Positions 441-64,000 of a stretch of 64,000 nucleotides of DNA are shown here, one piece after another. How positions within the stretch are numbered: the first letter of the stretch is position 1; each line of letters opens with the position of its first letter. The notes below the pieces were generated by a model. It searched no databases. It was given only the letters and a program-made list of their open reading frames with translations, and was not told the DNA's origin. The position numbers and the translations under genes were made by a program. This DNA comes from an uncultured Candidatus Saccharibacteria bacterium (GTDB taxonomy: Bacteria; Patescibacteriota; Minisyncoccia; Phycocordibacterales; CAYSCM01). The DNA is taken from positions 32,001 through 96,000 of the forward strand of contig CAYSCM010000001.1 in the NCBI GenBank assembly GCA_964429815.1, read 5' to 3'.

Positions 441-1028
441 TTAGCCGTAGGGCAGCTCAAAGGGATCCTTCTTGTGGACGACTTCGACCAGGAAGTTCGC
501 GAGGTCGCGAATCGCACCCTCGCCGCCTGGCCGGATGCTCACGAAGTGGCAAATCCTCTTGATGGCCTCCTCGCCGGAGATCGGCGCTGCCGAAAAGTGC
601 ACGGCCTTGAGCATCGCGACATCGACAAGGTCGTCGCCCATGGCCCCGCATTGATTAAGTGTTCCCCCGTGTTTGGCGAGCCATTCCTTGAGCGTCTCGA
701 GCTTCTTGGGCCCGCCGCACCCTTCGAAAAGGTCGATGGGGGGCCAGGCACCGCTTTTGCAGGAAGGGAGATTGTTCAGCCGCTCTACGAGCGCGCGGAC
801 ACCGGCTGCGTTATCATCCTTCTCGTTGGTGATGACGCACAGGCGGATGCCGAGCGCCCGCATAAGAGAGAGCCCCTGGCCGTCGTAGTACGTGCGGATT
901 TTGGGTTTGAATTTCACGCCCCCGATCTCGACGCCTTCCCACACGGTGTTTGGAAAAAGGCATCCGTCGGAATCAAACGCGAAGAAAGAGACTTCGCGGG
1001 CACGTTCGAGTACTTCGGTGGACCACAT
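441..1028 (-). CDS. HAD-IIIA phosphatase, KdsC family (3-deoxy-ulosonate phosphate phosphatase-like)
   Basis: FAFDSDGCL (DxDG), GDDLVDVAMLK and GGEGAIRDL motifs typical of KdsC. AGGAGG lies 7 nt upstream of the ATG at 1028. The track ORF extends to 1082, but that start lacks an RBS. Confidence 0.7.
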   Translation of the reverse strand: MWSTEVLERAREVSFFAFDSDGCLFPNTVWEGVEIGGVKFKPKIRTYYDGQGLSLMRALGIRLCVITNEKDDNAAGVRALVERLNNLPSCKSGAWPPIDLFEGCGGPKKLETLKEWLAKHGGTLNQCGAMGDDLVDVAMLKAVHFSAAPISGEEAIKRICHFVSIRPGGEGAIRDLANFLVEVVHKKDPFELPYG

Positions 1029-1160
1029 GGTCCCTCCTGTTTGTTTGTTGGCTACTGTTTGGCCGGACGCATTCTGACACATCCATTTTATTTGTCAATA
1101 TTCTTCCAGGCTGTCTGGCAATAGAAACCCGTGCTAAGCTTCGCGAGTAACAAACGCGCT

Positions 1161-1697
1161 ATGGACCACCTTAGTCCAGAACTTAGGAAGAAATTCTCGC
1201 AGGTACAGTTTCTCGCGCTCGACTTCGACGGCATTTTCACCACGGGCCACGTGTACGTGCGCCAAGATGGAGAAGAAAGCGTTAAGTGCGACCGGCGCGA
1301 CGGCTTTGGGATTGAGCTTCTGCGCCGAGCCGGAGCCGTTAAAGCTTGCATCATCTCGCGAGAGCCAAACCCCGTCGTGACGGCGCGCGCAAAAAAGCTC
1401 CAACTCCCGGTGTGGCAAGGGATCGAGCGCGGAGGAGGAAAGCTCGAGGTACTCAAAGCTCACGTGGCCGAGCTCGGCATTGCGCTTGAGAACGTCGCAT
1501 ACATGGGGGATGACCTCATCGACATTGCGGTGCTACGAAGCGTCGGACTCCCTATCAGCGTCCCGAACGCCCATCCGAAAGCGCAGAGAGAGGCCCTCTA
1601 CGTCACCAGAGCAGGCGGCGGGGACGGAGCGATCCGTGAGGTCGCCGAGCTTCTCTTGCTAAGCAAAGGTTTCGACCTCGAGGAGCTCTCCCGTTAG
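1161..1697 (+). CDS. HAD-IIIA phosphatase, KdsC family (second divergent paralogue)
   Basis: LALDFDGIF, GDDLIDIAVLRSVGLP and GGDGAIREVAELLL align along the whole length with KdsC. Alternative GTG start at 1131. Divergently oriented to the first paralogue. Confidence 0.65.
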   Translation: MDHLSPELRKKFSQVQFLALDFDGIFTTGHVYVRQDGEESVKCDRRDGFGIELLRRAGAVKACIISREPNPVVTARAKKLQLPVWQGIERGGGKLEVLKAHVAELGIALENVAYMGDDLIDIAVLRSVGLPISVPNAHPKAQREALYVTRAGGGDGAIREVAELLLLSKGFDLEELSR

Positions 1698-1737
1698 CCC
1701 AGTGACCCTTTATATGCGTGGTATGGTTATCTCACCT

Positions 1738-2454
1738 ATGAAAAACGATGTCGTGCTAGTGATCCCGGCTCGCGGTGGAAGCAAGGGAGTGCCGCGGAAA
1801 AATATCCGCCCGCTCTATGGAAAGCCCTTGGTTGCCTACACCATTGAAGCGGCGCTTTCCTCAGGAGCCATTAGCCGCGTTATTGTCTCGACCGATGATC
1901 AAGAGATTGGAGCAGTGGCAGAAAAATTTGGTGCGGAGTATCTTGACCGACCGAAAGAAATTTCCGGTGATAAGGTGACACTCGAGCCGGTGATTAAACA
2001 CGCTCTTGCGGCGCTAAAAGAAAAGGAAAACTACGTACCCACCTACATTGCCTGCATTCAGCCGACTTCCCCACTCCTTAGTGGAGATGTTATACGACGT
2101 TGTGTGGAAAAACTTACAAAAGAAAATTTTGATTCATGCATTACTGCGTTTTTGCCTGACACCTACGAATGGAAGTGGAGTCCAATCGTCAAAGACGGTA
2201 AAGAAGTCGGCTTCGAACCTGAACGACCTGTTATGAAGCGCGTGGTGCGGCAAGATTTGCCCAAGGTTTACCACGAGAACGGCGCCTTTTACGTCACCAA
2301 GACCTCACTTTTTAACGAAATCGGCCATCGCTGGGGAGGCAAGATGGCGATCGTTGAGATGACGCAGTTGAATTCTATACAAGTCGATAGCGAAGACCAA
2401 TTCTGGTTTATTGAACAGATCCTCCGCAAGCGCGAAAAAGACAACAAATCGTAG
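1738..2454 (+). CDS. CMP-nonulosonic acid synthetase (acylneuraminate cytidylyltransferase, NeuA/PseF/LegF family)
   Basis: The N-terminal VLVIPARGGSKGVPRKN motif is diagnostic of the NeuA-type cytidylyltransferase family. The track ORF starts at GTG 1702. ATG 1738 gives the canonical MK-x4-IPARGGSKG N-terminus. Confidence 0.7.
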   Translation: MKNDVVLVIPARGGSKGVPRKNIRPLYGKPLVAYTIEAALSSGAISRVIVSTDDQEIGAVAEKFGAEYLDRPKEISGDKVTLEPVIKHALAALKEKENYVPTYIACIQPTSPLLSGDVIRRCVEKLTKENFDSCITAFLPDTYEWKWSPIVKDGKEVGFEPERPVMKRVVRQDLPKVYHENGAFYVTKTSLFNEIGHRWGGKMAIVEMTQLNSIQVDSEDQFWFIEQILRKREKDNKS

Positions 2455-2511
2455 CCGCAGTCACTAGACAAATCATCGATTTTCTGGTCTATTGACACCA
2501 GTAACAGATCG

Positions 2512-2544
2512 CCCTCTAAAAATGTTTAGAGGGTAGGCTCTTTT
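2512..2544 (+). terminator. possible weak terminator hairpin between the cytidylyltransferase and radical SAM genes
   Basis: CCCTCTAAA-AATG-TTTAGAGGG 9-bp stem followed by TAGGCTCTTTT. A TTGACA at 2489..2494 overlaps it. Confidence 0.3.
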
Positions 2545-2564
2545 ACAGTTTACAGGAGGAACCA

Positions 2565-4307
2565 ATGACTCTCGAGCTCAGGGACTTTGTCCCGAAGAAG
2601 GCCCTCGGGCTCCATCCCGCCGACGTTGTCGCTGGGATTCCCTGGGGAGGACTCTCCGGTATGCGGGTGTGTTTCATCAACATGCCACTGCGGGAGTCCG
2701 CGAAGCCAAATACCCCGCCGCAAGGTCCCGGCCTTATGGCGGCCCGTCTTATGCAGTATGGCGCTGACGTCTCGATTATCGACCTCAACGGCTACCGTAT
2801 CGATGACGAAGAAGCGCACAAGCGCGGACTCGTCAATGGCCGACACGTCTCCCACAATGAGGCGCGTCAGCTCATCGAGGCGACTTTCCACAAGTTCGGC
2901 GAACCGCACGTGATTGGCCTTTCGGGGAAAATCACGACGTTGCGCTGGCAGGAGTGGACCGCCAAGACGTGTCGTTCGCTCGCTCCAGAGGCGTTTCTCA
3001 TCTCCGGCGGTGGGCTCGCGACCGAGTTCAAAGAAGGACTCTTCAGCTGGGTGCCGCAGCTCGACGCGGTCGGCCACTCGGAAGGCGACGACATCATGGT
3101 CGCCTGCGTGAATGACGTTCGCAAGAGCGGAGGCAAGCGCGAGCGCATGACCGACTCGCCCTACTACGTGGGCGAAATCGGCGGACGCCACCGCTTCCTC
3201 TATGCGGGCGATCGACCAAGGGACCTCGATGCGCTACCGTTTGCTGCGCTCGAACTTCTCGAAGAAGACGTCTTTGGCAATCGCATACTCGACGAGTACA
3301 TCGCGACCCCCGTATGGGGACTCGCGGCGAACAACTCGTCGGCGGCACCTTTCGAGATGAGGAAGTCTCTCACGACCGTCTCCTCTCGCGGCTGTCCGTA
3401 TGCCTGCGCGTTCTGCTTCCGTGGAGCGCAAGGCGAGCAAAAGTGGGGGATCCGCTCCCCCGAGAACCTGCGAGCCGAAGCCGAGTGGATGATTCGGAAG
3501 TATGGCGTGGATTTCATCGGGTTTCCCGATGACAACTTTGCCGTAAGCGTCAAGCGCTGCCAATCGCTTCCGGAGGCCTTTGACGGGCTCTCGTTTCGTT
3601 GGGGCACGCATACGCGCCTTGACGAATGCACGCTCGATCGGATCGTGCCCATGGCGAAAGCTGGGTGCATCTATATCGGCGTCGGTGCCGAATCGGCCTC
3701 GAAACACACCCTCTACCGCATGAAAAAGGGCGGACACATCGTCCGCAAGGACGGCGTGGAGCGTCTCACGAAATGGAACGGGTTCGAATTTCCGACAACG
3801 ATGATCGAGGGGATTCGAAATTGCCGAGACGTGGGTATCCACGTGAACGCGACCTGGATCATGGGATACCCAGGGGAAACCTTGGAGGACCTCAAGACCT
3901 CGGTTGCTTTCATTTCCTGGCAACAGGAGCACTACACCAAGGGATTGGTGCCCGGCACGCCGGAGTATCAAAATGCCTCGGCGTCGGTGAATCGACGCAT
4001 GTTCACGGCGACGTGGTATCCGGGGACCACCATGGTGGAAGCCCCCGAAGCCACGAAACCGCGGGAGCTCCTCGGCGAGCACTTCGGGATTCGTTTCGTC
4101 GAGAAAGGAAGCGGGCATGCACACAAGTTCGTCCCCGTTCCCGACGACGCAATGAAAGCCTATGTGCTGGAACTCGATGACGCGACTAAGATCCTCCACG
4201 GATCCGACGGAGCGCCCATCAACTACTCGGACATGCCGGAGGAGGTCTTCCTCGAGGCCCGTAGTCACATCGATTCGGGTCAAACGGAAAAGATCCTGTC
4301 GATGTAA
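2565..4307 (+). CDS. B12-binding (class B) radical SAM enzyme, probable radical methyltransferase acting on a sugar
   Basis: N-terminal cobalamin-binding-like domain (MRVCFINMPL...ADVSIIDLNGYRI). CxxxCxxC cluster in SSRGCPYACAFCF. AGGAGG 6 nt upstream of the ATG. Confidence 0.75.
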   Translation: MTLELRDFVPKKALGLHPADVVAGIPWGGLSGMRVCFINMPLRESAKPNTPPQGPGLMAARLMQYGADVSIIDLNGYRIDDEEAHKRGLVNGRHVSHNEARQLIEATFHKFGEPHVIGLSGKITTLRWQEWTAKTCRSLAPEAFLISGGGLATEFKEGLFSWVPQLDAVGHSEGDDIMVACVNDVRKSGGKRERMTDSPYYVGEIGGRHRFLYAGDRPRDLDALPFAALELLEEDVFGNRILDEYIATPVWGLAANNSSAAPFEMRKSLTTVSSRGCPYACAFCFRGAQGEQKWGIRSPENLRAEAEWMIRKYGVDFIGFPDDNFAVSVKRCQSLPEAFDGLSFRWGTHTRLDECTLDRIVPMAKAGCIYIGVGAESASKHTLYRMKKGGHIVRKDGVERLTKWNGFEFPTTMIEGIRNCRDVGIHVNATWIMGYPGETLEDLKTSVAFISWQQEHYTKGLVPGTPEYQNASASVNRRMFTATWYPGTTMVEAPEATKPRELLGEHFGIRFVEKGSGHAHKFVPVPDDAMKAYVLELDDATKILHGSDGAPINYSDMPEEVFLEARSHIDSGQTEKILSM

Positions 4308-4324
4308 TCCAGTTCTCTCACTCA

Positions 4325-4358
4325 GGGACCGCAGCAATGCGGTCCTTTTTTATTTTTA
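4325..4358 (+). terminator. rho-independent terminator
   Basis: GGACCGCA-GCAA-TGCGGTCC hairpin followed by TTTTTTATTTTTA. Confidence 0.7.
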
Positions 4359-4431: not shown

Positions 4432-5394
4432 ATGAAGATAGTACGGTGGTCCATACCCAAGCACCTCGATCTGTCGATTGAGATTTCCGGTAGAGAACAT
4501 ATGGCACAGGGAGAAAAGATGGGGTCTACGAAAGCCTTGGATGTCCTGCGCGGAATAACCTTCAGCGGCTCAGCGCCGGCGATACAGTTTGCCGATGTCG
4601 AGTCTTTATTTTCCTTTGTAGAAAAAAAATTTTTACATAAGACATTTGCGGGAGTCGGCATCGAAGTCGGCGCGGGGCCGATGATATTTAGCTCGCTCCT
4701 TACGCGCTCACGACCAAACATTCAACAGATGTATGGAATCGAACTAAGTGGCGGTATCGTAGAATTCATTGCCCCGGGAGTGGTTGATGAATTGCTGGGA
4801 CCCAAGAGTGAAAAGGTAGTCGGGGTCATCGGCAGTTTCGACGCGATGGAGCTTACAAGCGAGAGTGTCGATTTTGTTCTTGATTTTATGTCGCTTCACC
4901 ATGCGACCGACCTCGGAGAGGCGTTCGCCGAATGCTACCGGGTGCTAAAACCAGGCGGCTTCGTTGTTCTTTTTGACAAGGCTCGCCCCGATTCCTTCAC
5001 CTCTCAAGACCTGGAGGGATTGCTCAATACCGAGTACAGCGATGAAGAGAAAAAACGCTTTGGGGTGCCTTCCGGCGAACACTTTACACGCCGGATGAAC
5101 GGGGAAAAAGAATACCGGCTTAAAGATTGGTCGGCGGGGGCCTTAGAGGCCGGTTTCCCGACCCTTATGCATTGGCGACTCGCGCGCACCAACGTGCCGG
5201 GTATCTCAGGATTGTACCGACGTTTGCTTTCTCATGTGCCGCTACGCACCCAGATGGCTACTACCGCTATTGCACAAAGCGTACTGGGCAGCGGCTCAAG
5301 AGTGAAGTTTTCACAAAAAAATTTGGTGTACTCGCGGTACGTGAACCCCTTCCCCCGCGAGATCTCGCTCATGATCGCGCACAAGGCTTACTAA
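4432..5394 (+). CDS. class I SAM-dependent methyltransferase
   Basis: GIEVGAGPM glycine-rich motif I and LKPGGFVVL motif. Start uncertain: ATG 4432 sits 7 nt after a TATAGT hexamer, and an internal ATG at 4519 follows GGGAGA. Confidence 0.6.
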   Translation: MKIVRWSIPKHLDLSIEISGREHMAQGEKMGSTKALDVLRGITFSGSAPAIQFADVESLFSFVEKKFLHKTFAGVGIEVGAGPMIFSSLLTRSRPNIQQMYGIELSGGIVEFIAPGVVDELLGPKSEKVVGVIGSFDAMELTSESVDFVLDFMSLHHATDLGEAFAECYRVLKPGGFVVLFDKARPDSFTSQDLEGLLNTEYSDEEKKRFGVPSGEHFTRRMNGEKEYRLKDWSAGALEAGFPTLMHWRLARTNVPGISGLYRRLLSHVPLRTQMATTAIAQSVLGSGSRVKFSQKNLVYSRYVNPFPREISLMIAHKAY

Positions 5395-6299
5395 CTTCTC
5401 CACGCGCTCAGGTCGCGCCCGGTAAATGCCTCGAGTTTTTGCAGTTCGGGTTCATAGCGAGCGCGGAGGGCTTCTTTGAGCTTCGGGTCGAGCGTCCCGT
5501 AGCTAGCTTCCCCGGTCCCCGCCCTCGTGTCGATGGAGCGCACTACTTTTTGGTGGAGCGGCGTTTTGCGGAAGAGGGAGAGGAGGGGCTCTCCGAATGG
5601 CAGGGCTTTGAGTAGCTTCCGCGCCCTGAGCGCGTGTCTGCGCAAGAGTGTCGCTCCGGCGGAATTTATGGTCGTGGCGAGCGAGGGCGGCACGAACGAG
5701 GCATCGACGCCGATGAAAGAAAAGATATCTCTCATATATTTTTTTGGGTCGGCACGCATATCGTCATAGAACGTAATGAGTATCTGGTCGCGGGAAAATA
5801 CCTTGAGATAATTTTCGAGGTGCTTCATATAGAAGCTCTCCTCGATAAACGACGGTTTAGTTTTAATAATTTCCTCAAGGGTTGGGAGCTCATGTGCGCC
5901 CTTTAGCTTCGTGTACATGTAGTGGGAAAAAAAGCGCTCCGTAGGGTTTCGCAATACCGCAATGATCTTCGCTTTAGGAAAATGTGTACGGAGGCGCTCC
6001 GGCACCTCGGGTGCGTGAATATAGATAGGAGTGACTTCTCCGTATACCCTCTTCCCTACACAGTGACCAAAATGTTCAAAATACCCTTCGAGAGCGCCGT
6101 TGTATTTTGTTTTCCCCACCAAATCAGTGCGCCAGAAACTTTGCGTCGTGTTAAAAAAGTTGAGCTCTTTGGGTTCGGAAACACAGACCTCGGGGTGCTC
6201 TTTGAGACATTGGTGGAGCCAGGTGGTGCCCGTCCGCTCCGGACCAATCACGAAGAAATCAATGGAAAAAGGCTTTGCTGTAGATGAAATGGTACTCAT
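5391..6299 (-). CDS. sulfotransferase family protein (PAPS-dependent)
   Basis: 5'-PSB-like motif FFVIGPERTGTTWLHQ and 3'-PB-like motif RNPTERFFSHY. Confidence 0.65.
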   Translation of the reverse strand: MSTISSTAKPFSIDFFVIGPERTGTTWLHQCLKEHPEVCVSEPKELNFFNTTQSFWRTDLVGKTKYNGALEGYFEHFGHCVGKRVYGEVTPIYIHAPEVPERLRTHFPKAKIIAVLRNPTERFFSHYMYTKLKGAHELPTLEEIIKTKPSFIEESFYMKHLENYLKVFSRDQILITFYDDMRADPKKYMRDIFSFIGVDASFVPPSLATTINSAGATLLRRHALRARKLLKALPFGEPLLSLFRKTPLHQKVVRSIDTRAGTGEASYGTLDPKLKEALRARYEPELQKLEAFTGRDLSAWRS

Positions 6300-6931
6300 G
6301 AGGCCGTCGGGATGGATTCCTTGTCGCGGTTTGAGAAAAACAGGTAGTCGACGATGGCGTGGAAGAAAACCGCGTGAAGCGCCTCAACGGGACCGTAGGC
6401 ACCTTTTCCTGTCTCAATGATTATCTTGTGGTGACAGAGGCTCTTCGCTTTGCCTCCGTCAAAACCAAGAACGCCTATCGCCGTGCCGCCCTTAGCGCAT
6501 ATGTACTCGATCGCGCGAAGCACATTGGGGGAATTGCCACTTGCGGAAATGACGATGAGCACATCGTCGGGACGAAAAATGTGCTTAAGCTGGTCCGCAA
6601 AAACGTTCTCGTAGCCGACATCGTTCCCGAGCGCCGTCACGGCGGCGATATTGTTGAGCGCGTGAATACGAAACGGCTTTTCTTCCGTACCACCCCCGTT
6701 CGTGGTGAGATCGGCCGCAAAGTGAGCCGCCATGGCAGCGCTCCCCCCGTTGCCGGCGATGTAGATCGTAGAGCCCCTCTCCCGGGCCTTTTGAAGCACG
6801 TCGATAATCTCCTCGACCGCTTTGGAATCTACGGCGGAAGCAAGCTCGAAGGCATGCGCAAGATACCCTTCCATAAATTCGGGTACCGATCCTTTTGTCT
6901 TTTGATAGATGGTATCGACGTGTCCTCTCAT
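6296..6931 (-). CDS. gmhA: D-sedoheptulose-7-phosphate isomerase (SIS domain)
   Basis: IYIAGNGGSAAMAAHFAADL matches the GmhA SIS signature. 4-nt overlap with the upstream sulfotransferase gene. Confidence 0.7.
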   Translation of the reverse strand: MRGHVDTIYQKTKGSVPEFMEGYLAHAFELASAVDSKAVEEIIDVLQKARERGSTIYIAGNGGSAAMAAHFAADLTTNGGGTEEKPFRIHALNNIAAVTALGNDVGYENVFADQLKHIFRPDDVLIVISASGNSPNVLRAIEYICAKGGTAIGVLGFDGGKAKSLCHHKIIIETGKGAYGPVEALHAVFFHAIVDYLFFSNRDKESIPTAS

Positions 6932-8596: not shown

Positions 8597-10366
8597 TTAT
8601 TTTTTTTCGGGAAGAAGCTTAACCATCATGTTGTCATTGAACTCTTTTCTTGCAAGTAGCGGCTCGGGATCCTCGAGCGGCCGACCGAACTTTACCTGCG
8701 GGATTACGCGGTGCTTCGGGTTAATCTCGATGTTACAAAACACAGGCCCCCTCATCGCGAGCACCTTCTTAACTCCCCCGCTCAACTCGCGGTTCTTCTT
8801 GATCGTAATGGTTTTGAAGCCAAAGGAGGAAGCAATTTTGGCAAAGTCTGGGAACGCAAGTCCTCCCCCTTCCGAAGACGCAAGATACGCCGAATTAAAC
8901 CACTGATCTTGAGTCTGCTGTATCATACTGTAGCCGTGGTTATTCAATACAAAAATCTTGATCGGAAGTTTGTGCTTGAGAAGGGTACTTAACTCTTGCA
9001 AATTCATTTGGAGTGAACCATCTCCGGTTACACAAATAATTGATTTCTTGTTAAGCGCCAGGCTTACCCCAATGCTCGCCGGCAAAGCCCACCCCATCGC
9101 GGTGTTGTTCCAATCGTGGTAAAGACGCTGACCTTTCTTGAAGGAAAATCCCTGCATCATCCATGCGACCGTGCAGCCGGTATCAATGACCATTACTTCG
9201 TTCTGACGCGTGTAGCGAGAGAGCTCCTCAACAAATACATACGGATTGACCCCTTTCTCTTTGTAGTACGCGGGTGGGCACATGGGATATTTTTTCTTCC
9301 ATGCGGCAATACGTCTAAGCCAGGGTGAGATGTCGTTTTTTGGCAAACGTGCGGCGTGCTTTTGAAATGCCTTCAGCAGCTCTTTTGCGTCACCGGAGAT
9401 ACGCACATCGACTTTCAGGCCAAATTTTTTAAACTTCTTAAGTTCGTAGGGGTCAATATCGATGACTATCTTTTTTGCCTCTCGCGCAAACGTGTTGGGA
9501 GGACTACCCGTCGATTTGGTATCAAGACGGCTTCCGATTGAGAGGATCATGTCAGCGTTCTGGACGGCAAAATTGGCAAACCGCGTGCCGTGAGTGCCAA
9601 AGGTGCCGATGCGAAGTGGATGACTCTCTGGCAGGAGATCCCCTGCCCCCCATGTGAGTGCCGCAGGAAAGCCGAGTGTTTCCAAAAGTGAGATGGCCTC
9701 TTTTTCGGCCCCCGCGAGGTGGATTCCCCACCCAAACACAACGACGGGGCGCTTCGCCTGCCGTAGATAGTTTATGCTTCGAGCTACATCAACCGGCGCT
9801 TTCTTCTTCTCGACGGAGGGTGTAAACGAGGGAAGCTCTCCTGGATTAATTTCTCTGCGCTGAATGTCGTCGGGAATATCGAGCACTACGGGTCCTGGCC
9901 TACCACTTCGCGCCAGAAAGATCGCTTTCTCAAGCTCGTAGCGTATGCGCCTCTCATCGGTGATGAGTATCGCGTACTTAGTGATAGGACGATACATTTC
10001 GACCGTTGCCGTTTCTTGAAAACCCACTTGCCGCACGTTGGTATGACCTTTCATCCTAAAGGTGGCTACTTGGCCGGTAATAAATATGACGGGTACCGAA
10101 TCGTAGTAGGCGGAGCACACTCCCGTGATCATGTTCGTAGCACCTGGCCCTGAGGTGGACATCGCTACACCGAGGCCACCCGTGGCCCTCGCGTACCCGT
10201 CGGCAGCCATTGCCCCCGCTTGCTCGTGTCCTGGACAGATGACCTCCATTCCCCCCGTGCGCGCCACCGAATGAATAAGGTGAAGGGATGCTCCGCCGGA
10301 GATGGCAAAGACATGCTTCACCCCTTCTTTGCGGAGAACCTGTGCTACGTAGTCGGTGAGCTTCAT
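8597..10366 (-). CDS. thiamine-diphosphate-dependent enzyme, acetolactate-synthase large-subunit-like (candidate sugar C-branching enzyme, YerE-like)
   Basis: N-terminal TPP pyrimidine-binding domain (AISGGASLHLIH...GPGATNMITG). Central domain. C-terminal TPP-binding GDGSLQMNLQELST...NNHGY motif. Confidence 0.7.
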   Translation of the reverse strand: MKLTDYVAQVLRKEGVKHVFAISGGASLHLIHSVARTGGMEVICPGHEQAGAMAADGYARATGGLGVAMSTSGPGATNMITGVCSAYYDSVPVIFITGQVATFRMKGHTNVRQVGFQETATVEMYRPITKYAILITDERRIRYELEKAIFLARSGRPGPVVLDIPDDIQRREINPGELPSFTPSVEKKKAPVDVARSINYLRQAKRPVVVFGWGIHLAGAEKEAISLLETLGFPAALTWGAGDLLPESHPLRIGTFGTHGTRFANFAVQNADMILSIGSRLDTKSTGSPPNTFAREAKKIVIDIDPYELKKFKKFGLKVDVRISGDAKELLKAFQKHAARLPKNDISPWLRRIAAWKKKYPMCPPAYYKEKGVNPYVFVEELSRYTRQNEVMVIDTGCTVAWMMQGFSFKKGQRLYHDWNNTAMGWALPASIGVSLALNKKSIICVTGDGSLQMNLQELSTLLKHKLPIKIFVLNNHGYSMIQQTQDQWFNSAYLASSEGGGLAFPDFAKIASSFGFKTITIKKNRELSGGVKKVLAMRGPVFCNIEINPKHRVIPQVKFGRPLEDPEPLLARKEFNDNMMVKLLPEKK

Positions 10367-12215: not shown

Positions 12216-13496
12216 ATGCGCCAAAAATTGAGCACCCTTGTCGAAAAACTGACGGTCGCGACCGGCATAAACTTTTCCTACCTCCTGCGCGGAGGGTCCT
12301 GGGCGTTTTCCGAGCAGGTGGTTACCAACGCCATCTCCCTCCTCCAGGCCATCGCGTTTGCCAACCTTATCTCTCCGCAGACGTATGGAGTGTTTAGTGT
12401 CGTGCAATCGTGGATAGGCATTCTCGTTACGTTCGCGCTCGGGAGCCTTCCAAACGCGCTTATAAAAAGCGTTGCGGAAGGCAACGACGGGGAGCTCAAA
12501 CGCGGATTTCTCCTCAAGCTTAAGTATGCTCCCCTTGCCTCTCTGCTCGGGCTCGGATTCTCCTTCTACTATCTATTTATAGGGAACAATACGACCCTCG
12601 CTTACTCGTTTCTCATTGCTTCGTTTTGCATGCCGCTTTACGTAGCGCTTCCGCAGGTCACGTTCTTCCTGTTCGCCAAGGGAGCATTTCTCGATAAGTT
12701 CATCGTGCAAGTGAGCGTTAGTCTTGCTTCGCTGGCAGGAATGACTATTTCAATGCTCTATTTCGGTTCTGTTCCATACCTGATGCTCGCCTACTTCATT
12801 CCACCGATCATCGTGAACGGCATCTTTTTTTGGCGCACGCTGCGCACCAAGGTTCATAATGCCAAGACCGGCGCGAACACGGAGCGGTTTGCGCTCCACC
12901 TTACGGGCATGAGTCTTCTTGGTTCGATAACCAAAAACATCGACCAACTCCTCATGTTCCACTTCAGCGGCGCAGTTCAGCTCGCGGTATATAAATTTGC
13001 CTTGATTCCCATACGAAAGCTGGAGACCTTTTTCCAGATCATCCTCGATCTGCTCCTCCCGCGATTTGCCAAGAGAGAGTACCGCGAGATTTACCAGGGG
13101 TTCGACAGAAAGCTCCTCCTTTCAGGCGCTTTTTCGTTGACGGTCGTGGCTGTTTATTTTTTCAGCATCCCCTACCTCTACAAGCTCTTTTTCCCGAAAT
13201 ACACCGACGCGGTGATATACTCGCGACTCCTTTCCCTGCTGTTTTTGTTTGGCCCTCTCTCATACGTTCAGCAGCTTTGGCTTGCGAAGGCGGAAACTAA
13301 ACGTCTCTATTTTTTAAAAATTCTCGGTGATTCCACCCGGATCTCACTTCATGTCGCGCTTATTCCCGTATTTGGGATCGCCGGTGCAGTGGGAAGCCGG
13401 ATGGTCGCATCCTCCTTTGTCAGCACCGCGGCATTCATTTTATTTTTGAAGGATAGGAGACGGTACGGTAAAGGCTCGAAGCGCCAATCGCAGTAA
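12216..13496 (+). CDS. polysaccharide/oligosaccharide flippase (Wzx-like MOP superfamily membrane protein)
   Basis: 426 aa, about 12 predicted hydrophobic helices, with Wzx-like topology and length. The only plus-strand gene in this part of the locus. Confidence 0.55.
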   Translation: MRQKLSTLVEKLTVATGINFSYLLRGGSWAFSEQVVTNAISLLQAIAFANLISPQTYGVFSVVQSWIGILVTFALGSLPNALIKSVAEGNDGELKRGFLLKLKYAPLASLLGLGFSFYYLFIGNNTTLAYSFLIASFCMPLYVALPQVTFFLFAKGAFLDKFIVQVSVSLASLAGMTISMLYFGSVPYLMLAYFIPPIIVNGIFFWRTLRTKVHNAKTGANTERFALHLTGMSLLGSITKNIDQLLMFHFSGAVQLAVYKFALIPIRKLETFFQIILDLLLPRFAKREYREIYQGFDRKLLLSGAFSLTVVAVYFFSIPYLYKLFFPKYTDAVIYSRLLSLLFLFGPLSYVQQLWLAKAETKRLYFLKILGDSTRISLHVALIPVFGIAGAVGSRMVASSFVSTAAFILFLKDRRRYGKGSKRQSQ

Positions 13497-16249: not shown

Positions 16250-17317
16250 TTAAAACGGACCGGTAAAACGCTTATCGGGCACATCGAGCGGCGTCGTGCG
16301 TTTCTTCTCTTCCGCTGCGACGAGCGACTCTAATTTTTTTGTATCCCCCTCAACCATAGAGACCACCATTCTGGCCATATCGATATAGCGCGGGTAGTAC
16401 TCATTGGCAAGCGCAGGCGTTGATGGGCTTGGCAGATCCGGCGCGGTAAGCCGGCGAGGGTTGGTCCGTAGACTGATTGTCGAATCCTCCGCGACTTGTG
16501 TGATTATCTCTCCCGCGACCCCGAAGCTGCGATGCCCGAGATCGGCCACAAGCAGCCGTCCTGTTTTTTTGACTGAGCGTGCTATTGTCTCGGTATCAAG
16601 AGGTTTAAGACTTCGCACATCGACGACCTCGGCGCTCACGCCAACCTTTTGGAGTAACTCCTGCGCACGCAGAGCCTCGTAGGTGAAGTAGGACGTTGTT
16701 ACAAGGGAAACATCGCTTCCCCGGCGCATTATACGAGCCTTGCCGATGGGCACCCTATAGTGACCCTCGGGAACATCTTCAGCAAGATCATGGAGCCATC
16801 GATGATCGATATATATGACCGGATTATCGTCCTCAATCGCGGCGAGCATCAGTCCCTTGGCATCGGAGGGGGTCGCGGGCATCACTACCTTGAGCCCGGG
16901 GATGTGCGCATAGAGGGCTTGGAGATTTTGTGAATGCTGCGGGCCCTGCCCCCATCCCATGCCGATGGTCATTTTCACCGTAAGGGGTACCGATTGCGCT
17001 CCGTTGTACATGTACGACCATTTCGCCGCATTGTTGATCACCTGCTCGATCGCAAGAAGGCTGAAGTCAACTCTCTGGTGCGTTAGGACTGGGCGCATCC
17101 CATTTACCGCCGCACCGATGCAGATCCCGGTTACCGCGAGCTCAGAAGTTGGCATATCAAGTACTCGTTTTGCGCCATGTTTTTTCTGAAGTCCCGTCGT
17201 CGTGCCAAAAATTCCCTTTGGATCAGGGACACCCAATCCTATAAGGAACACCGACTTGTCTTTAGCCAGAGCAAGATCAAATGCTTCTCGTATTGCTTGC
17301 GAATATGTTTTACGCAT
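16250..17317 (-). CDS. TPP-dependent 2-oxoacid dehydrogenase E1 component, beta subunit-like (transketolase-like C-terminal domains)
   Basis: E1-beta-like pyrimidine-binding and C-terminal transketolase domains. ATG 17317 overlaps the upstream alpha-subunit stop by 8 nt (ATGCGTAA), implying translational coupling. The track ORF extends to 17401. Confidence 0.7.
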   Translation of the reverse strand: MRKTYSQAIREAFDLALAKDKSVFLIGLGVPDPKGIFGTTTGLQKKHGAKRVLDMPTSELAVTGICIGAAVNGMRPVLTHQRVDFSLLAIEQVINNAAKWSYMYNGAQSVPLTVKMTIGMGWGQGPQHSQNLQALYAHIPGLKVVMPATPSDAKGLMLAAIEDDNPVIYIDHRWLHDLAEDVPEGHYRVPIGKARIMRRGSDVSLVTTSYFTYEALRAQELLQKVGVSAEVVDVRSLKPLDTETIARSVKKTGRLLVADLGHRSFGVAGEIITQVAEDSTISLRTNPRRLTAPDLPSPSTPALANEYYPRYIDMARMVVSMVEGDTKKLESLVAAEEKKRTTPLDVPDKRFTGPF

Positions 17318-20309: not shown

Positions 20310-20353
20310 GGTACCTGATGGGTGGGAAAAGAAAAGCCGCGAAAAGCTTCCTC

Positions 20354-21724
20354 CTAGGAAATAAAACTGAGCACAGCGGAAGCGATGTGAGAGGCCGACA
20401 TTCCGTCGAATTTCCAGCAGTAGCGATCTTTGAAAACTTTGCGCCGGTCGCTGTGAATCTCGGGGTGCGCAAGGTAGATGTTGATCCATTTCGCAAGTTC
20501 TCCCTTGGAGCCCACGAGAGCGGTCGAGCCGATGGAGAGCCAGGAAACTTGATTTTCCTCCAATCTCCAGCGCCTCACGAGGCTGCGCAGGAACGGTACC
20601 TTTGTTTCCCACCCGTCGAAATTGATGGTGATGAGCGGTTTATCGAAAATAGAAGAATCGATGATGATGGAAGAGATGGTATTGATGACCAGCGAGCTCC
20701 AGTAGAGTGAATCGTAAATGTGTTGAAAGAAGCTCATGTCGAGTTCCCCCTCTCGCTTGTCACGCTCAAGGTCATTGAGCTTGGCGGGGCCTGGAATATC
20801 AATAATAAAGTGCTCGTCTGGTGTGAATTTGGAGAGGTCGACGGGGAGGAACGGGTGGAGCCGAACCAAAATTTGCAAATCGTCGGGGATTTTCTTCTCC
20901 GCAAAGAGGTCTTTGAGGATCTGGCAGGTCTGCCAGTCGGTGTCGATGAAAAAATGTCCGGCGGGCGCGAAGAGGACGAGGCGTTTCTTCGGGTCAGCGC
21001 CGATTTTCTTAAAAAATTCTTCACGCGGGGTCGGCTGCATGGTGAGGTACTTTTCAAACTGCGGGACACCTGATAGCACGATCGTGGTCTCTTTGATGTG
21101 GTGGTAGCGCACCATATCCTCTTTCATGACCTCGTTATGGACGATGAGCCGATCCGGCACGAAGCGAGCATAGCTACGGGACGTCGTATTGTCCCACGAA
21201 CGCACCATCGCGACCGTTCTCACCCCGCGTGCTTTGGCATTTTTGAGAAGGAAGAGGTCCGAGTGATTAAAAAGGTCGGTCGCGAACACGACGCTGGGCC
21301 GATATGTCTCAACATATCGATTGAACGTGTCCTGATTATTGAGCCTATAGTCGAGAAAACGCAGGAATTTCTTGACTGGCGTGATCGGAGCGAACAGGGC
21401 CGTGAAGAGAAGCGACGTATAGTACTTCGGCCAGTTACCCGTCTTCGTCCGCGCCTCGAGTTTATGGATCCACATGACGTTCGTGTCGAGGAGCCACTCG
21501 GCCAGTCTTTGGAACAGCCGGTTGCGGAAACTGGTTACGTTCTTTCCAAGTTCCACCCCCTCGACAATGACGCCCGGGTAGCGTATTTTAAAATATTCCT
21601 CCTGGGGTTTTGCAACAAAAAGGACGACCCGCGCCTCCTTGGTGAGAAGATCGAGCACTCCCGTGTTGAGGATATTTTTTGTTATAAACGGATGAAAATC
21701 CGTAATGAAAACCGTCGGCTTCAT
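20354..21724 (-). CDS. hypothetical transferase (possible GT-B-like glycosyl- or glycerophospho-transferase; family unresolved)
   Basis: 456 aa soluble protein inside the glycan locus. Placement and size fit TagF/KpsS-type transferases, but no motif could be matched by eye. Confidence 0.3.
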   Translation of the reverse strand: MKPTVFITDFHPFITKNILNTGVLDLLTKEARVVLFVAKPQEEYFKIRYPGVIVEGVELGKNVTSFRNRLFQRLAEWLLDTNVMWIHKLEARTKTGNWPKYYTSLLFTALFAPITPVKKFLRFLDYRLNNQDTFNRYVETYRPSVVFATDLFNHSDLFLLKNAKARGVRTVAMVRSWDNTTSRSYARFVPDRLIVHNEVMKEDMVRYHHIKETTIVLSGVPQFEKYLTMQPTPREEFFKKIGADPKKRLVLFAPAGHFFIDTDWQTCQILKDLFAEKKIPDDLQILVRLHPFLPVDLSKFTPDEHFIIDIPGPAKLNDLERDKREGELDMSFFQHIYDSLYWSSLVINTISSIIIDSSIFDKPLITINFDGWETKVPFLRSLVRRWRLEENQVSWLSIGSTALVGSKGELAKWINIYLAHPEIHSDRRKVFKDRYCWKFDGMSASHIASAVLSFIS

Positions 21725-44260: not shown

Positions 44261-44290
44261 GAGTATAGCAATTTTGCCGCCATCGCGATG

Positions 44291-44320
44291 CAAAAAGCCC
44301 CGCACTCTTTTGCGGGGCTT
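44291..44320 (-). terminator. rho-independent terminator (minus strand)
   Basis: AGCCCCGCA / TGCGGGGCT stem with a T-run on the minus strand. Confidence 0.6.
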
Positions 44321-50388: not shown

Positions 50389-50528
50389 TATACCAGTACG
50401 CATTTCTGGAAAGCGAGCAGACTTTAAAGACATACTGCTATGGTCTACTTCCGTACTCGATCGAGATACAGAATATCGACCGGATAAGTCTTACCTTCCG
50501 AAGAAGGAGACAGTTCCGATTGGAATTA

Positions 50529-51973
<1,445 letters not shown>

Positions 51974-51986
51974 AGCTAAGAATTCG

Positions 51987-60914: not shown

Positions 60915-61022
60915 AACCTGGCGGCTACCTACTCTCCCCTTGCGAGTACCATCGGCGCTAGCGGGCTTAACGGCCGTGTTCGGAATGAGAACGGGTGTTT
61001 CCCCGCCGCCAAACCACCAGAT
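60915..61022 (-). rRNA. rrf: 5S ribosomal RNA
   Basis: Minus-strand read UCUGGUGGUUUGGCGGCGGGGAAACACCCGUUCUCAUUCCGAACACGGCCGUUAAGCCCGCUAGCGCCGAUGGUACUCGCAAGGGGAGAGUAGGUAGCCGCCAGGU. Helix I and loop C/E conserved. Flanked by the inverted repeat CCGTCCAAAATGT / ACATTTTGGACGG, which forms a processing stem. Confidence 0.85.

Positions 61023-61459: not shown

Positions 61460-64000
<2,541 letters not shown>

What the first reader, a model, noticed from the sequence alone, without database searches (positions are those of the whole stretch)
2565..4307. B12-binding radical SAM enzyme in the glycan locus, with its own RBS and terminator
Class B radical SAM enzymes (CxxxCxxC plus an N-terminal cobalamin domain) typically methylate unactivated carbons, for example GenK and Fom3. 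One sits here between a CMP-nonulosonate synthetase gene and a SAM methyltransferase gene. That points to radical C-methylation, or another radical rearrangement, of a sugar. A B12-dependent step in a tiny-genome organism would also imply cobalamin acquisition.
Basis: partly seen in the sequence, partly recalled or inferred. Interest (0 to 1): 0.6.

Follow-up and report, generated by a model that had tools for sequence, protein, structure and literature searches.

The report
Uncharacterised class-B radical SAM sugar-acid enzyme
The gene is real and encodes a radical SAM enzyme with a vitamin-B12-type domain; it belongs to a large unstudied family that almost always sits next to a gene for activating sialic-acid-like sugars, so it probably adds an unusual modification (most likely a methyl group on carbon) to such a sugar, but no member has been tested.

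Summary
ORF 2565-4307 (+), 580 aa, is a real gene. It has an AGGAGG ribosome-binding site 5 nt upstream and a strong intrinsic terminator.

**What it is.** The fold is class B radical SAM: a Rossmann domain of the cobalamin-binding type, a CxxxCxxC barrel, and a family-specific C-terminal domain. All four published cobalamin-binding motifs are present and conserved. Two cautions apply:
- The Pfam B12 hit for this protein is below threshold.

**Family.** More than 800 relatives were found. Most are from Patescibacteria, but some are from Roseibium, Polyangiaceae, Opitutia and Desulfobulbia. The protein reaches no curated family cut-off, and no paper describing the family was found.

**Genomic context.**
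- Of 47 well-flanked loci, 32 have a PseF-like cytidylyltransferase within 1.5 kb.
- 35 have a NeuB-type synthase within 10 kb, and 27 have a KdsC-like phosphatase.
- In non-Patescibacteria, the radical SAM gene and the cytidylyltransferase gene form a stand-alone pair.
- One sister-clade protein is fused to a TagF-like transferase.

**Best reading (inferred, about 0.45).** It is a cobalamin-dependent C-methylase acting on a CMP-linked, or soon to be CMP-linked, ulosonic acid, analogous to Fom3 and GenK.

Partly supported. The anatomy and neighbours are right. The chemistry and the need for cobalamin uptake are untested, and the window holds no B12 uptake or salvage gene.

The parts
2565..4307 (+). 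Class B radical SAM gene, 580 aa. Domains: N-terminal tail (aa 1-29); Rossmann domain of the cobalamin-binding type (aa 30-200, nt 2652-3164); linker; radical SAM barrel (aa 265-450, nt 3357-3914); family-specific C-terminal domain (aa 451-580, nt 3915-4304).
   Evidence: ORF. Pfam and NCBIfam. AlphaFold2 model with pLDDT 89 and pTM 0.90. Fold matches to TokK, TsrM, AprD4, CysS, MgmA and OxsB. At least 823 homologues.
3393..3416 (+). Codons for the cluster-binding motif C277-x3-C281-x2-C284 (SSRGCPYACAFCFRG).
   Evidence: Read directly from the translation. Invariant in 59 and in 77 family members.
2916..3089 (+). Codons for three cobalamin-type motifs: G118-L-S120-G-K122-I-T124 (the 'G-x-S-x-L' downstream motif on the beta3-alpha3 loop), G148-G149-G150 (the GG motif on beta4), and G174-D175 (the 'GE' motif at the start of alpha5). 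The His-less 13-residue 'His loop' (aa 40-52) lies upstream at nt 2682-2720.
   Evidence: Motif definitions come from review PMC9204698. Secondary-structure positions come from the model. Conservation holds even in the 32-35% identical sister clade. The profile alignment to the cobalamin-binding domain of TokK covers this stretch.
2554..2559 (+). Shine-Dalgarno sequence AGGAGG, 5 nt upstream of the ATG.
   Evidence: Read from the sequence.
4324..4357 (+). Intrinsic terminator: a 10-bp G+C-rich hairpin followed by a T-run, 17 nt after the stop codon.
   Evidence: Folding energy -19.1 kcal/mol, z = -2.76.
2511..2544 (+). Hairpin with a short T-run between the cytidylyltransferase gene and the radical SAM gene. 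It may be a weak terminator or attenuator.
   Evidence: Its function was not tested.
1702..2454 (+). PseF-like (nonulosonate-type) cytidylyltransferase, the conserved partner gene. Gene callers start it at 1738.
   Evidence: Pfam CTP_transf_3, E = 2e-29. NCBIfam PseF, E = 4e-44, 150.9 bits against a cut-off of 205.7. A homologue lies within 1.5 kb of the radical SAM gene in 32 of 47 loci.
1131..1697 (+). KdsC / Kdn-9-P-phosphatase-like HAD phosphatase.
   Evidence: NCBIfam TIGR01670, 114.3 bits, above its cut-off of 106.95. KdsC E = 3e-37. A homologue lies near the radical SAM gene in 27 of 47 loci.
441..1082 (-). Second, more divergent KdsC-like HAD phosphatase.
4432..5394 (+). Class I SAM methyltransferase, 320 aa ('MT320'). 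It recurs next to the radical SAM gene in Patescibacteria.
   Evidence: Pfam Methyltransf_11, E = 3e-13. Homologues occur in 18 related loci.
12216..13496 (+). Polysaccharide flippase (Polysacc_synt). It belongs to the recurrent cassette.
   Evidence: Homologues occur in 32 related loci.
20354..21724 (-). TagF-like transferase (Glyphos_transf). In most Patescibacteria cassettes it directly follows the cytidylyltransferase. Here it is displaced by about 15 kb of extra glycan genes.
   Evidence: 61% identical to the L075 homologue, with homologues in 24 loci. A sister-clade radical SAM protein is fused to such a domain.

Best explanation
The gene encodes a member of an uncharacterised class B (cobalamin-type) radical SAM family that works as a pair with a PseF-like cytidylyltransferase.

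In Patescibacteria this pair is embedded in a cassette with three roles:
- It builds a 3-deoxy-2-ulosonic (sialic-acid-like or Kdn-like) acid by the phosphate route. A NeuB-type synthase condenses PEP with a sugar phosphate, and a KdsC-like phosphatase then removes the phosphate.
- It activates the acid as a CMP-sugar.
- It passes the sugar to a TagF-like transferase and a flippase for a surface glycan.

The proposed reaction follows known cobalamin-dependent radical SAM methylases:
1. The [4Fe-4S] cluster held by C277, C281 and C284 cleaves SAM to a 5'-deoxyadenosyl radical.
2. That radical removes a hydrogen from an sp3 carbon of the sugar acid. The substrate is most likely the CMP-linked form.
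3. Methylcobalamin held by the N-terminal Rossmann domain delivers a methyl group to the substrate radical.
4. A second SAM re-methylates the cobalamin.

The product would be a C-methylated, possibly chain-extended, ulosonic acid. The neighbouring class I methyltransferase would add a separate O- or N-methyl group.

Shown: the gene, the fold, the motifs and the conserved gene partnership. Inferred: cobalamin binding, the substrate, methylation, and the order of steps.
For: **Fold and motifs**
- Radical_SAM domain with an invariant CxxxCxxC motif.
- Confident AlphaFold2 model, pLDDT 89.
- The 14 best Foldseek matches are all class B enzymes or AprD4: TokK, TsrM, AprD4, OxsB, CysS and MgmA, with E between 1e-15 and 1e-12.
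- All four cobalamin-binding motifs defined from the OxsB, TsrM and TokK structures (PMC9204698) sit at the right places in the model. These are a long His-less beta1-alpha1 loop, G118-x-S120-x-K/M/L122, G148-G-G150, and G174-D/E175.
- Those motifs stay invariant even in a sister clade only 32-35% identical.
- The Rossmann domain is as conserved as the catalytic barrel: 29 versus 39 positions at 95% or more.
- The family profile aligns its N-terminal domain to the cobalamin-binding domain of TokK. It aligns to AprD4 only in the barrel.
- PF02310 matches 44 of 59 members.

**Pathway link** (47 loci with at least 8 kb on both sides)
- Cytidylyltransferase within 500 bp in 25 loci, within 1.5 kb in 32, within 10 kb in 37.
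- NeuB within 10 kb in 35 loci.
- KdsC-like phosphatase in 27 loci.
- At least one of the three in 44 loci.
- The pair overlaps or abuts in Polyangiaceae, Opitutia, Roseibium and Sphingomonadales.
- Every partner tested is PseF-like rather than KdsB-like.
- In Desulfobulbia, a NeuB-epimerase fusion, the cytidylyltransferase, a methyltransferase and the radical SAM gene form one co-directional block.
- The sister-clade protein P0164 is a radical SAM enzyme fused to a TagF-like transferase.

**Precedent**
- The substrate of Fom3 is a cytidylylated molecule, 2-HEP-CMP (PMC8992657).
- GenK and GenD1 C-methylate sugars (same paper).
Against: - No member of the family has been studied, and six of ten literature searches aimed at it found nothing.
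- The Pfam B12 hit of this particular protein is below threshold.
- The conserved Rossmann loops could bind something other than cobalamin, for example the CMP part of the substrate.
- No C-methylated ulosonic acid is known to me (own knowledge).
- Patescibacteria are not known to make cobalamin (own knowledge), and no uptake or salvage gene lies in the 64 kb window.
- The order of the radical SAM step and the cytidylylation step is unknown.
- In non-Patescibacteria the pair often lacks NeuB and the phosphatase within 10 kb, so the substrate there is not defined by context.
Confidence: 0.45

Rival explanations
1. Same pathway, but the enzyme does not use cobalamin. Like AprD4, it would use only the 5'-deoxyadenosyl radical to dehydrate, epimerise, oxidise or deaminate the ulosonic acid or its sugar-phosphate precursor. 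The Rossmann domain would bind the substrate, for example its CMP part.
For: - AprD4 gives the highest target-normalised TM-score, 0.70.
- AprD4 and ArsL homologues sit in the B12 radical SAM similarity network without binding cobalamin (PMC12931638).
- This protein's PF02310 score is sub-threshold.
- An SDR gene lies next to the radical SAM gene in many Patescibacteria loci: 15 of 47 within 1.5 kb. AprD4 works with a reductase partner (own knowledge).
- It would remove the need for B12 in organisms that cannot make it.
Against: - All four cobalamin motifs are present and invariant across clades.
- The family's N-terminal domain aligns by sequence to the cobalamin domain of TokK. AprD4 is matched only in the barrel.
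- The SDR is absent from the Roseibium, Polyangiaceae, Opitutia and Desulfobulbia versions, so it is not an obligate partner.
- AprD4 ranks first partly because it is small and lacks extra domains.
Confidence: 0.22
2. The enzyme depends on cobalamin but is not a methylase. It would carry out a radical rearrangement, ring contraction or cyclisation of the sugar skeleton, as OxsB, HpnJ or BchE do.
For: - The best NCBIfam hits include BchE (E = 6e-20) and HpnJ (E = 6e-18).
- OxsB is among the fold matches.
- Reviews stress that class B chemistry goes beyond methylation.
- A separate class I methyltransferase is already in the cassette.
Against: - All these NCBIfam hits cover only the common barrel and lie far below the cut-offs, for example 71.6 against 481 bits.
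- P- and C-methylases (Sden_1168, PhpK, ApyD) score equally well.
- Most characterised class B enzymes are methylases (own knowledge).
Confidence: 0.13
3. The substrate is not a sugar acid. The cytidylyltransferase would put a CMP handle on a small non-sugar molecule such as a phosphonate, as in fosfomycin biosynthesis, and the radical SAM enzyme would modify that. The glycan context in Patescibacteria would then reflect decoration of a glycan with this group.
For: - In Polyangiaceae, Opitutia and some Roseibium, the pair stands alone among unrelated genes, with no NeuB or phosphatase within 10 kb.
- Weak NCBIfam hits to the P-methyltransferases Sden_1168 and PhpK.
- TagF-like enzymes normally transfer phospho-alcohols from CDP-donors (own knowledge), and one is fused to a sister-clade radical SAM enzyme.
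- Fom3 acts on 2-HEP-CMP.
Against: - Every partner cytidylyltransferase is PseF-like / CTP_transf_3, the nonulosonate and Kdo type. None is of the LicC, MobA or Fom1 type.
- NeuB is within 10 kb in 35 of 47 loci and is in the same co-directional block in Desulfobulbia.
- No PEP mutase or phosphonopyruvate decarboxylase was seen in any locus examined.
- Gram-negative hosts make Kdo elsewhere in the genome, which could explain the missing NeuB (inference).
Confidence: 0.12
4. The synteny is incidental. The enzyme would modify something unrelated, such as a peptide, lipid, tRNA or cofactor.
For: - Three of 47 loci show none of the three pathway genes.
- In one Roseibium locus type the pair lies 2.4 kb upstream of cobalamin biosynthesis genes.
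Against: - Adjacency to the same cytidylyltransferase family holds in at least six phylum-level groups, often with overlapping stop and start codons.
- A fusion to a TagF-like transferase exists.
- No precursor-peptide or lipid genes recur in the neighbourhood.
Confidence: 0.05

Closest known systems
Fom3 (fosfomycin biosynthesis, cobalamin-dependent radical SAM C-methyltransferase)
   Same: Class B architecture. It works on a substrate carrying a cytidylyl (CMP) group made by a dedicated cytidylyltransferase, and it methylates a hydroxyl-bearing sp3 carbon (PMC8992657). Here the radical SAM gene is similarly tied to a cytidylyltransferase gene.
   Different: - The partner of Fom3 is the cytidylyltransferase domain of Fom1, and its substrate is a phosphonate.
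- The partner here is PseF-like, and the context is NeuB plus a KdsC-like phosphatase.
- No Fom3-specific model was matched.
- The C-terminal domain (aa 451-580) is specific to this family.
GenK / GenD1 (gentamicin) sugar C-methyltransferases, class B radical SAM
   Same: Class B enzymes that C-methylate carbohydrate carbons.
   Different: They act on aminoglycoside pseudo-oligosaccharides in actinomycete antibiotic clusters, not on CMP-ulosonic acids in cell-surface glycan loci. No sequence-level family relation was shown here.
TokK, TsrM, CysS, MgmA, OxsB (class B enzymes with solved structures)
   Same: - Same three-part fold.
- TokK aligns by sequence in both the cobalamin domain (residues 63-127) and the cluster motif.
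- Same four cobalamin-binding motifs.
   Different: - Only 14-20% identity.
- The residue aligned with the lower-face residue Trp76 of TokK is an invariant Thr (T124). The position of TsrM Arg69 / OxsB Asn186 is K, M or L. If cobalamin binds, the environment of the cobalt lower face would be of a type not yet described.
AprD4 (radical SAM 1,2-diol dehydratase, apramycin)
   Different: AprD4 does not bind cobalamin (PMC12931638). It reaches 31.6 bits against the NCBIfam AprD4 cut-off of 500. Sequence similarity is confined to the barrel.
Phosphate-route ulosonic acid pathways (KdsA/KdsC/KdsB for Kdo; the Kdn-9-P synthase, phosphatase and CMP-Kdn synthetase type)
   Same: The cassette contains a NeuB-type synthase, a KdsC / Kdn-9-P-phosphatase-like HAD enzyme and a CMP-transferase.
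   Different: - None of these pathways, as far as I know, includes a radical SAM enzyme.
- NeuB, the phosphatase partner and the cytidylyltransferase all score below the equivalog cut-offs, so the sugar is probably not Neu5Ac, Pse or Kdo itself.
TIGR04295 'B12_rSAM_oligo' (uncharacterised B12-binding radical SAM family)
   Same: An uncharacterised class B family. My recollection is that it too was defined from saccharide loci.
   Different: 35.1 bits against a cut-off of 400, so this protein is not a member.

Membership tests
Radical SAM superfamily | CxxxCxxC motif that binds a [4Fe-4S] cluster, within a partial TIM barrel | tested here: met
   C277-x3-C281-x2-C284 is invariant. PF04055 scores 58.9 bits against a cut-off of 29.5. 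The barrel matches LipA, BioB, HydE and others.
Class B (cobalamin-dependent) radical SAM enzymes | N-terminal Rossmann domain of the cobalamin-binding type, placed before the barrel | tested here: met
   - The model shows five beta-alpha units at aa 34-187.
- The full-length fold matches TokK, TsrM, CysS, MgmA and OxsB.
- PF02310 matches 44 of 59 members.
Class B (cobalamin-dependent) radical SAM enzymes | Pfam B12-binding (PF02310) at or above the gathering score in this protein | tested here: not met
   16.7 bits, E = 0.0069, against a cut-off of 32.1. Relatives score better, with best E = 8e-9.
Class B (cobalamin-dependent) radical SAM enzymes | Base-off/His-off cobalamin motifs: a long His-less beta1-alpha1 loop, G-x-S-x-L on beta3-alpha3, GG on beta4, and GE at the start of alpha5 (PMC9204698) | tested here: met
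   The loop at 40-52 has no His. The other motifs are G118-L-S120-G-K122, G148-G149-G150 and G174-D175 (GE in the sister clade). All are conserved at 95% or more.
Class B (cobalamin-dependent) radical SAM enzymes | Actual binding of cobalamin and dependence of activity on it | not testable with these tools
   This needs purified protein. AprD4 shows that fold alone is not sufficient.
Curated class B families (BchE, HpnJ, PhpK, Sden_1168, ApyD, KedN5, AprD4, BzaD, TIGR04295 and others) | Score at or above the NCBIfam cut-off | tested here: not met
   The best hit is BchE, 71.6 bits against 481. All 17 hits are far below their cut-offs and mostly cover only the barrel.
Fom3-like enzymes (class B acting on a cytidylylated substrate) | The substrate carries a CMP group installed by a dedicated, co-encoded cytidylyltransferase | tested here: inconclusive
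   Co-encoding is strongly conserved. Whether the radical SAM enzyme acts before or after cytidylylation cannot be told from sequence.
Nonulosonic / ulosonic acid biosynthesis cassette | A NeuB-type PEP-condensing synthase and a CMP-transferase in the same locus | tested here: met
   - NeuB lies 6.0-7.0 kb upstream of the gene in the window's own contig (L001 2988-3986), just outside the window.
- The cytidylyltransferase is at window 1702-2454.
- Across 47 loci, NeuB is within 10 kb in 35 and the cytidylyltransferase in 37.
Nonulosonic / ulosonic acid biosynthesis cassette | Equivalog-level identity to the NeuB, PseI, PseF or KdsB enzymes of known sugars | tested here: not met
   NeuB scores 250 bits against 400, PseI 207 against 340, PseF 151 against 206, and KdsB 50 against 155. 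The sugar is probably not one of the characterised ones.

The most novel reading that the evidence does not exclude
The radical SAM gene and the PseF-like cytidylyltransferase gene form a two-gene module for an undescribed class of bacterial sugar: a radical C-methylated, possibly chain-extended, ulosonic acid.

- The module would supply this sugar to the surface glycans of many Patescibacteria and of several Gram-negative lineages.
- Its cobalt lower-face environment (Thr at position 124, Lys/Met/Leu at position 122) would be a new type.
- It would make these ultra-small bacteria dependent on scavenged cobalamin to build their cell surface.
Probability: 0.35. Interest if true: 0.7.

Novelty: new variant of a known kind. 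Interest (0 to 1): 0.52.

Why it matters
**Sugar chemistry.** If the inference holds, sialic-acid-like sugars have a radical, B12-dependent tailoring step that no described Neu, Leg, Pse, Kdn or Kdo pathway contains. This would add a new sugar chemistry and a new substrate class for cobalamin-dependent radical SAM enzymes.

**Patescibacteria biology.** The family is most common in Patescibacteria, whose surface glycans are chemically unknown and probably mediate attachment to host cells. A B12 requirement for making that surface would be a concrete, testable metabolic dependency on the host or the community.

**Tractability.** The same module occurs in cultured Roseibium species, so the chemistry can be tested without cultivating a Patescibacterium.

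**If it turns out to be cobalamin-free.** It would then be a second, much more widespread example of the AprD4 type of class-B look-alike.

Tried and rejected
**Membership in a named family: rejected**
- Membership in BchE, HpnJ, PhpK, AprD4, BzaD, TIGR04295 and the other named class B families is rejected. All scores are far below the cut-offs.

**Literature: nothing on this family**
- Ten full-text searches were run.
- Six aimed at this family, combining radical SAM with nonulosonic or ulosonic acid, NeuB, sialic acid, pseudaminic acid or Patescibacteria. They returned nothing relevant.
- The one promising hit, a cyanophage paper, mentions Kdo genes and a radical SAM gene separately.

**B12 genes in the window: none found**
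- No transporter, adenosyltransferase or B12-dependent enzyme was found among about 50 annotated ORFs.
- There is no cobalamin riboswitch in the window or in six related loci.
- The TP_methylase gene at 46244-46927 looked like a corrin methylase but is RsmI.

**Fusions and names**
- The long homologues P0121, P0128 and P0159 were checked for informative fusions. Their extra length is an intein, not a partner domain.
- Exact-sequence look-ups gave no source names.

**Tools and tests that failed or were uninformative**
- The AFDB fold library was unavailable.
- A sequence search with the N-terminal domain alone gave only DARPin noise plus a weak TokK match.
- I checked whether marine alphaproteobacterial single-cell genomes carrying the gene are SAR11, which, to my knowledge, does not use B12. 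Their GC content of 37-38% does not fit SAR11, so the test was uninformative.

**Phosphonate reading: considered unlikely**
- No PEP mutase was seen, and all partners are PseF-like.

**Promoter**
- A sigma-70-type promoter upstream of the gene was not convincingly found. TTGACA at 2492-2497 lacks a good -10 element.
Full report
**1. The observation**

ORF 2565-4307 on the + strand (ATG start, 580 aa) is present as described. AGGAGG lies at 2554-2559, 5 nt before the start codon. Seventeen nucleotides after the TAA stop there is a 10-bp G+C-rich hairpin at 4324-4347, followed by TTTTTTATTTTT. It folds at -19.1 kcal/mol, z = -2.8 against shuffles.

A second hairpin with a short T-run at 2511-2534 separates the gene from the upstream gene. 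The gene may therefore be its own transcription unit. I found no convincing promoter.

The long antisense ORFs (2550-3191 and 3234-4337, both on the - strand) are by-products of the 56% G+C content. The + strand product has at least 823 homologues, and the best 120 are 54-74% identical over the full length.

**2. What the protein is**

Pfam finds Radical_SAM at residues 273-449 (E = 9e-16). The B12-binding match is only sub-threshold: E = 0.0069, 16.7 bits against a cut-off of 32.1. The cluster motif C277-PYA-C281-AF-C284 is invariant.

An AlphaFold2 model built on 59 relatives is confident, with pLDDT 89 and pTM 0.90. It shows three parts:
- a five-stranded Rossmann domain (aa 34-187);
- the radical SAM barrel;
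- a C-terminal domain (aa 451-580).

The fold searches agree on class B:
- By Foldseek, the 14 best PDB matches are TokK, TsrM, AprD4, OxsB, CysS and MgmA, with E from 1e-15 to 1e-12. Generic radical SAM barrels follow only at E = 1e-5 or worse.

The class B architecture is therefore confirmed.

**3. Does it bind cobalamin?**

Several observations nevertheless favour binding.

- A review of the OxsB, TsrM and TokK structures defines four features of base-off/His-off binding (PMC9204698). All four are present at the matching places in the model:

| Feature in the review | In this protein |
|---|---|
| Long 'His loop' without His, between beta1 and alpha1 | aa 40-52, LRESAKPNTPPQG |
| Downstream G-x-S-x-L motif on the beta3-alpha3 loop | G118-L-S120-G-K122 (Met or Leu in relatives) |
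| Gly-Gly motif on beta4 | G148-G149-G150 |
| Gly-Glu at the start of alpha5 | G174-D175 (G-E in the sister clade) |

- In an alignment of 77 members, these loops are invariant or nearly so. The alignment includes a sister clade from Desulfobulbia that is only 32-35% identical.
- In the same alignment the Rossmann domain is as conserved as the barrel: 29 versus 39 positions at 95% or more.
- The family profile aligns to the cobalamin-binding domain of TokK, residues 63-127, which covers three of the motifs. It aligns to AprD4 only in the barrel.
- 44 of 59 members match PF02310.

In that alignment, Trp76 of TokK, the residue closest to the cobalt, corresponds to the invariant T124. The position of TsrM Arg69 and OxsB Asn186 corresponds to K/M/L122. 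If cobalamin binds, its lower-face environment would differ from the four described types.

I put cobalamin binding at roughly two in three.

**4. The family and its relatives**

The protein reaches no curated NCBIfam cut-off. The best hits are BchE, Sden_1168, ApyD, PhpK and HpnJ at 65-72 bits, against cut-offs of 480-750, and they mostly cover only the barrel.

A profile search of 1.84 billion cluster representatives gave three tiers:
- a few dozen representatives above about 250 bits (E = 1e-70 or better), full-length proteins and fragments together;
- 240 representatives at E = 1e-30 or better;
- 18,132 representatives at E = 1e-10 or better, which is the class B superfamily.

The family is thus a tight, distinct clade with its own C-terminal domain. 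Sources name members only 'radical SAM protein', 'hypothetical protein' or 'YgiQ family'. Ten full-text literature searches found no paper on the family.

Members come mostly from Patescibacteria MAGs labelled Saccharibacteria, Lloyd-, Zambryski-, Taylor-, Nomura-, Vogel-, Azam-, Yanofsky- and Sungiibacteria. They also come from:
- cultured Roseibium species (R. aggregatum, R. litorale, R. hamelinense ATCC BAA-252, strain TrichSKD4), at about 50% identity;
- Polyangiaceae, Planctomycetota, Opitutia, Nitrospirae, Acidobacteriota and Sphingomonadales;
- marine alphaproteobacterial single-cell genomes.

The window's own contig is 0.5 Mb, and its closest relatives are Patescibacteria.

**5. Genomic context**

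I clustered all ORFs of 86 loci and counted neighbours. I then repeated the counts by tblastn to avoid ORF-calling errors in high-GC genomes. Among 47 non-redundant loci with at least 8 kb on both sides:

| Neighbour | Loci (of 47) |
|---|---|
| CTP_transf_3 cytidylyltransferase within 500 bp | 25 |
| Cytidylyltransferase within 1.5 kb | 32 |
| Cytidylyltransferase within 10 kb | 37 |
| NeuB-type synthase within 10 kb | 35 |
| KdsC-like HAD phosphatase | 27 |
| All three | 22 |
| None of the three | 3 |

The recurring gene orders are:
- **Patescibacteria:** flippase, NeuB, (sugar-phosphate 3-epimerase-like TIM barrel, SDR), phosphatase, radical SAM, (320-aa methyltransferase), cytidylyltransferase, TagF-like transferase.
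- **One Roseibium locus type:** NeuB, phosphatase, methyltransferase, radical SAM, cytidylyltransferase.
- **Desulfobulbia:** a NeuB-epimerase fusion protein, cytidylyltransferase, methyltransferase and radical SAM, all co-directional.

All partner cytidylyltransferases tested score best against PseF (E = 1e-12 to 1e-44) and much worse against KdsB. All are below the PseF cut-off. The NeuB proteins are likewise NeuB/PseI-like but below the cut-offs.

The window's own NeuB lies 6.0-7.0 kb upstream of the radical SAM gene, just outside the window. It sits with a second cytidylyltransferase, a cupin, two kinase-like genes and two D-2-hydroxyacid dehydrogenases.

In the window the cassette is split. 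The TagF-like transferase (20354-21724), a DegT aminotransferase and a GT4 gene that normally follow the cytidylyltransferase are displaced by about 15 kb of further glycan genes.

**6. Two further observations sharpen the picture**

- In Polyangiaceae, Opitutia and a second Roseibium locus type, the radical SAM and cytidylyltransferase genes overlap or abut. They stand alone among unrelated genes: RF3, cytochrome c peroxidase, DHFR, a TRAP transporter and amino-acid decarboxylases. No NeuB or phosphatase lies within 10 kb. The conserved functional unit is therefore the pair. These Gram-negative hosts could supply an ulosonic acid such as Kdo from genes elsewhere, but that is an inference.
- A sister-clade protein, P0164 (1096 aa), is a class B radical SAM enzyme fused to a TagF-like domain. 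That domain is homologous to the transferase of the Patescibacteria cassettes. The fusion ties the radical SAM step to a transferase that releases CMP.

**7. Most likely mechanism**

The following steps are shown or well supported:
- a [4Fe-4S]/SAM radical enzyme of class B architecture;
- a functional partnership with a nonulosonate-type cytidylyltransferase;
- in Patescibacteria, membership in a phosphate-route ulosonic acid cassette that feeds a surface glycan.

The following steps are inferred:
- The enzyme binds methylcobalamin.
- It removes a hydrogen from an sp3 carbon of the sugar acid and transfers a methyl group to that carbon.
- It acts on the CMP-linked form, as Fom3 acts on 2-HEP-CMP (PMC8992657).
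- It may methylate a hydroxyl-bearing terminal carbon, as Fom3 and GenK do, which would lengthen the carbon chain.

I give this reading 0.45. The rivals are:

| Rival reading | Confidence |
|---|---|
| Cobalamin-free AprD4-like chemistry on the same sugar | 0.22 |
| Cobalamin-dependent rearrangement rather than methylation | 0.13 |
| A non-sugar substrate carrying a CMP handle | 0.12 |
| Incidental synteny | 0.05 |

An SDR gene next to the radical SAM gene in many Patescibacteria recalls the reductase partner of AprD4 (own knowledge). It is absent from all versions outside Patescibacteria, so it is not obligatory.

**8. Cobalamin acquisition**

This was not testable. Annotation of about 50 ORFs in the window shows one very large glycan locus from about 0.4 to 41.7 kb. 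It contains:
- GT4 glycosyltransferases and GDP-mannose-dehydratase-type enzymes;
- a DegT aminotransferase and two sulfotransferases;
- a TylC3-like SAM-dependent sugar C-methyltransferase;
- TPP enzymes and an asparagine-synthase-like gene.

Housekeeping genes and rRNA genes follow. No B12 transporter, salvage enzyme or other B12-dependent enzyme was found. There is no cobalamin riboswitch. The tetrapyrrole-methylase-domain gene at 46244-46927 is RsmI.

**9. Verdict**

The gene belongs to a widespread, uncharacterised class B radical SAM family whose constant partner is a sialic-acid-type cytidylyltransferase.

I know of no described ulosonic acid pathway that contains such an enzyme, and my searches found none. 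I therefore rate it a new variant of a known kind, of moderate interest (0.52). It is a good, experimentally tractable lead, because cultured Roseibium carries the same module. It is not a surprise in kind.

Noticed in passing
Homologues P0121, P0128 and P0159 (not in the window); the equivalent window position is codon 284, nt 3414-3416: Three relatives carry an intein inside the radical SAM cluster motif, about 300-350 residues long (about 330 in P0121). Two of them, P0121 and P0159, show a LAGLIDADG-type endonuclease motif. The junction in P0121 reads ...SRGCPFSCAF | C-LVPE...THN | C-YRGAQGE. The third cluster cysteine serves as the +1 splice nucleophile.
   Followed up: partly
Protein P0164 (sister clade, 1096 aa): A class B radical SAM enzyme fused at its C-terminus to a TagF-like (Glyphos_transf) domain. 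That domain is homologous to the transferase gene that follows the cytidylyltransferase in Patescibacteria cassettes (blastp E = 1e-10).
   Followed up: partly
L034 14145-18087 (Roseibium); also L038, L041 and L042: In one Roseibium locus type, the radical SAM and cytidylyltransferase pair lies 2.4 kb upstream of cobalamin biosynthesis genes (CbiX, CbiC/CobH and two precorrin methylases). Only one genus shows this, so it may be coincidence. It could also hint at a B12 link.
   Followed up: partly
window 50519-51980 (-), 60916-61021 (-), 61464-64000 (-): The rRNA genes are unlinked. The 23S and 5S genes lie about 9 kb from the 16S gene, with FtsW, GT4, a sugar transferase, an epimerase and SecDF between them. 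The 23S match spans about 160 nt more than the model positions it covers, so it may contain an insertion.
   Followed up: no
window 16250-18269 (-) and 19251-20612 (-); L083 12937-14484 and 17173-19208: A PfkB-type kinase with an N-terminal extension and a pair of E1 alpha/beta TPP-enzyme subunits are shared between this Patescibacteria locus and the very distant Desulfocapsaceae locus. Identity is 38-45%, with E = 1e-84 to 1e-104. A GmhA-like SIS isomerase (window 6296-6931) also recurs in about 10 loci. This suggests the sugar precursor may be more elaborate, for example heptose-derived or branched.
   Followed up: partly
window 8597-10366 (-) and 29975-31243 (+): The locus also encodes an acetolactate-synthase-like three-domain TPP enzyme. 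To my knowledge this type can add two-carbon branches to sugars. A TylC3-like SAM-dependent NDP-sugar C-methyltransferase is present too, so conventional C-branching chemistry sits in the same glycan locus.
   Followed up: no
L003 12152-13555 (Sungiibacteriota CP066690.1): A diversity-generating retroelement (a reverse transcriptase gene plus a bAvd gene) lies directly downstream of the radical SAM homologue. It separates that gene from its NeuB, cytidylyltransferase and methyltransferase genes.
   Followed up: no
window 46244-46927 (-): This gene has a tetrapyrrole-methylase domain and could be mistaken for a corrin biosynthesis gene. It is the 16S rRNA methyltransferase RsmI (TIGR00096, 240.9 bits against a cut-off of 167.9).
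   Followed up: yes
window 41719-44305 (-): A lamin-tail-domain protein lies next to a VirD4/TraG-like type IV coupling protein, immediately after the glycan locus.
   Followed up: no
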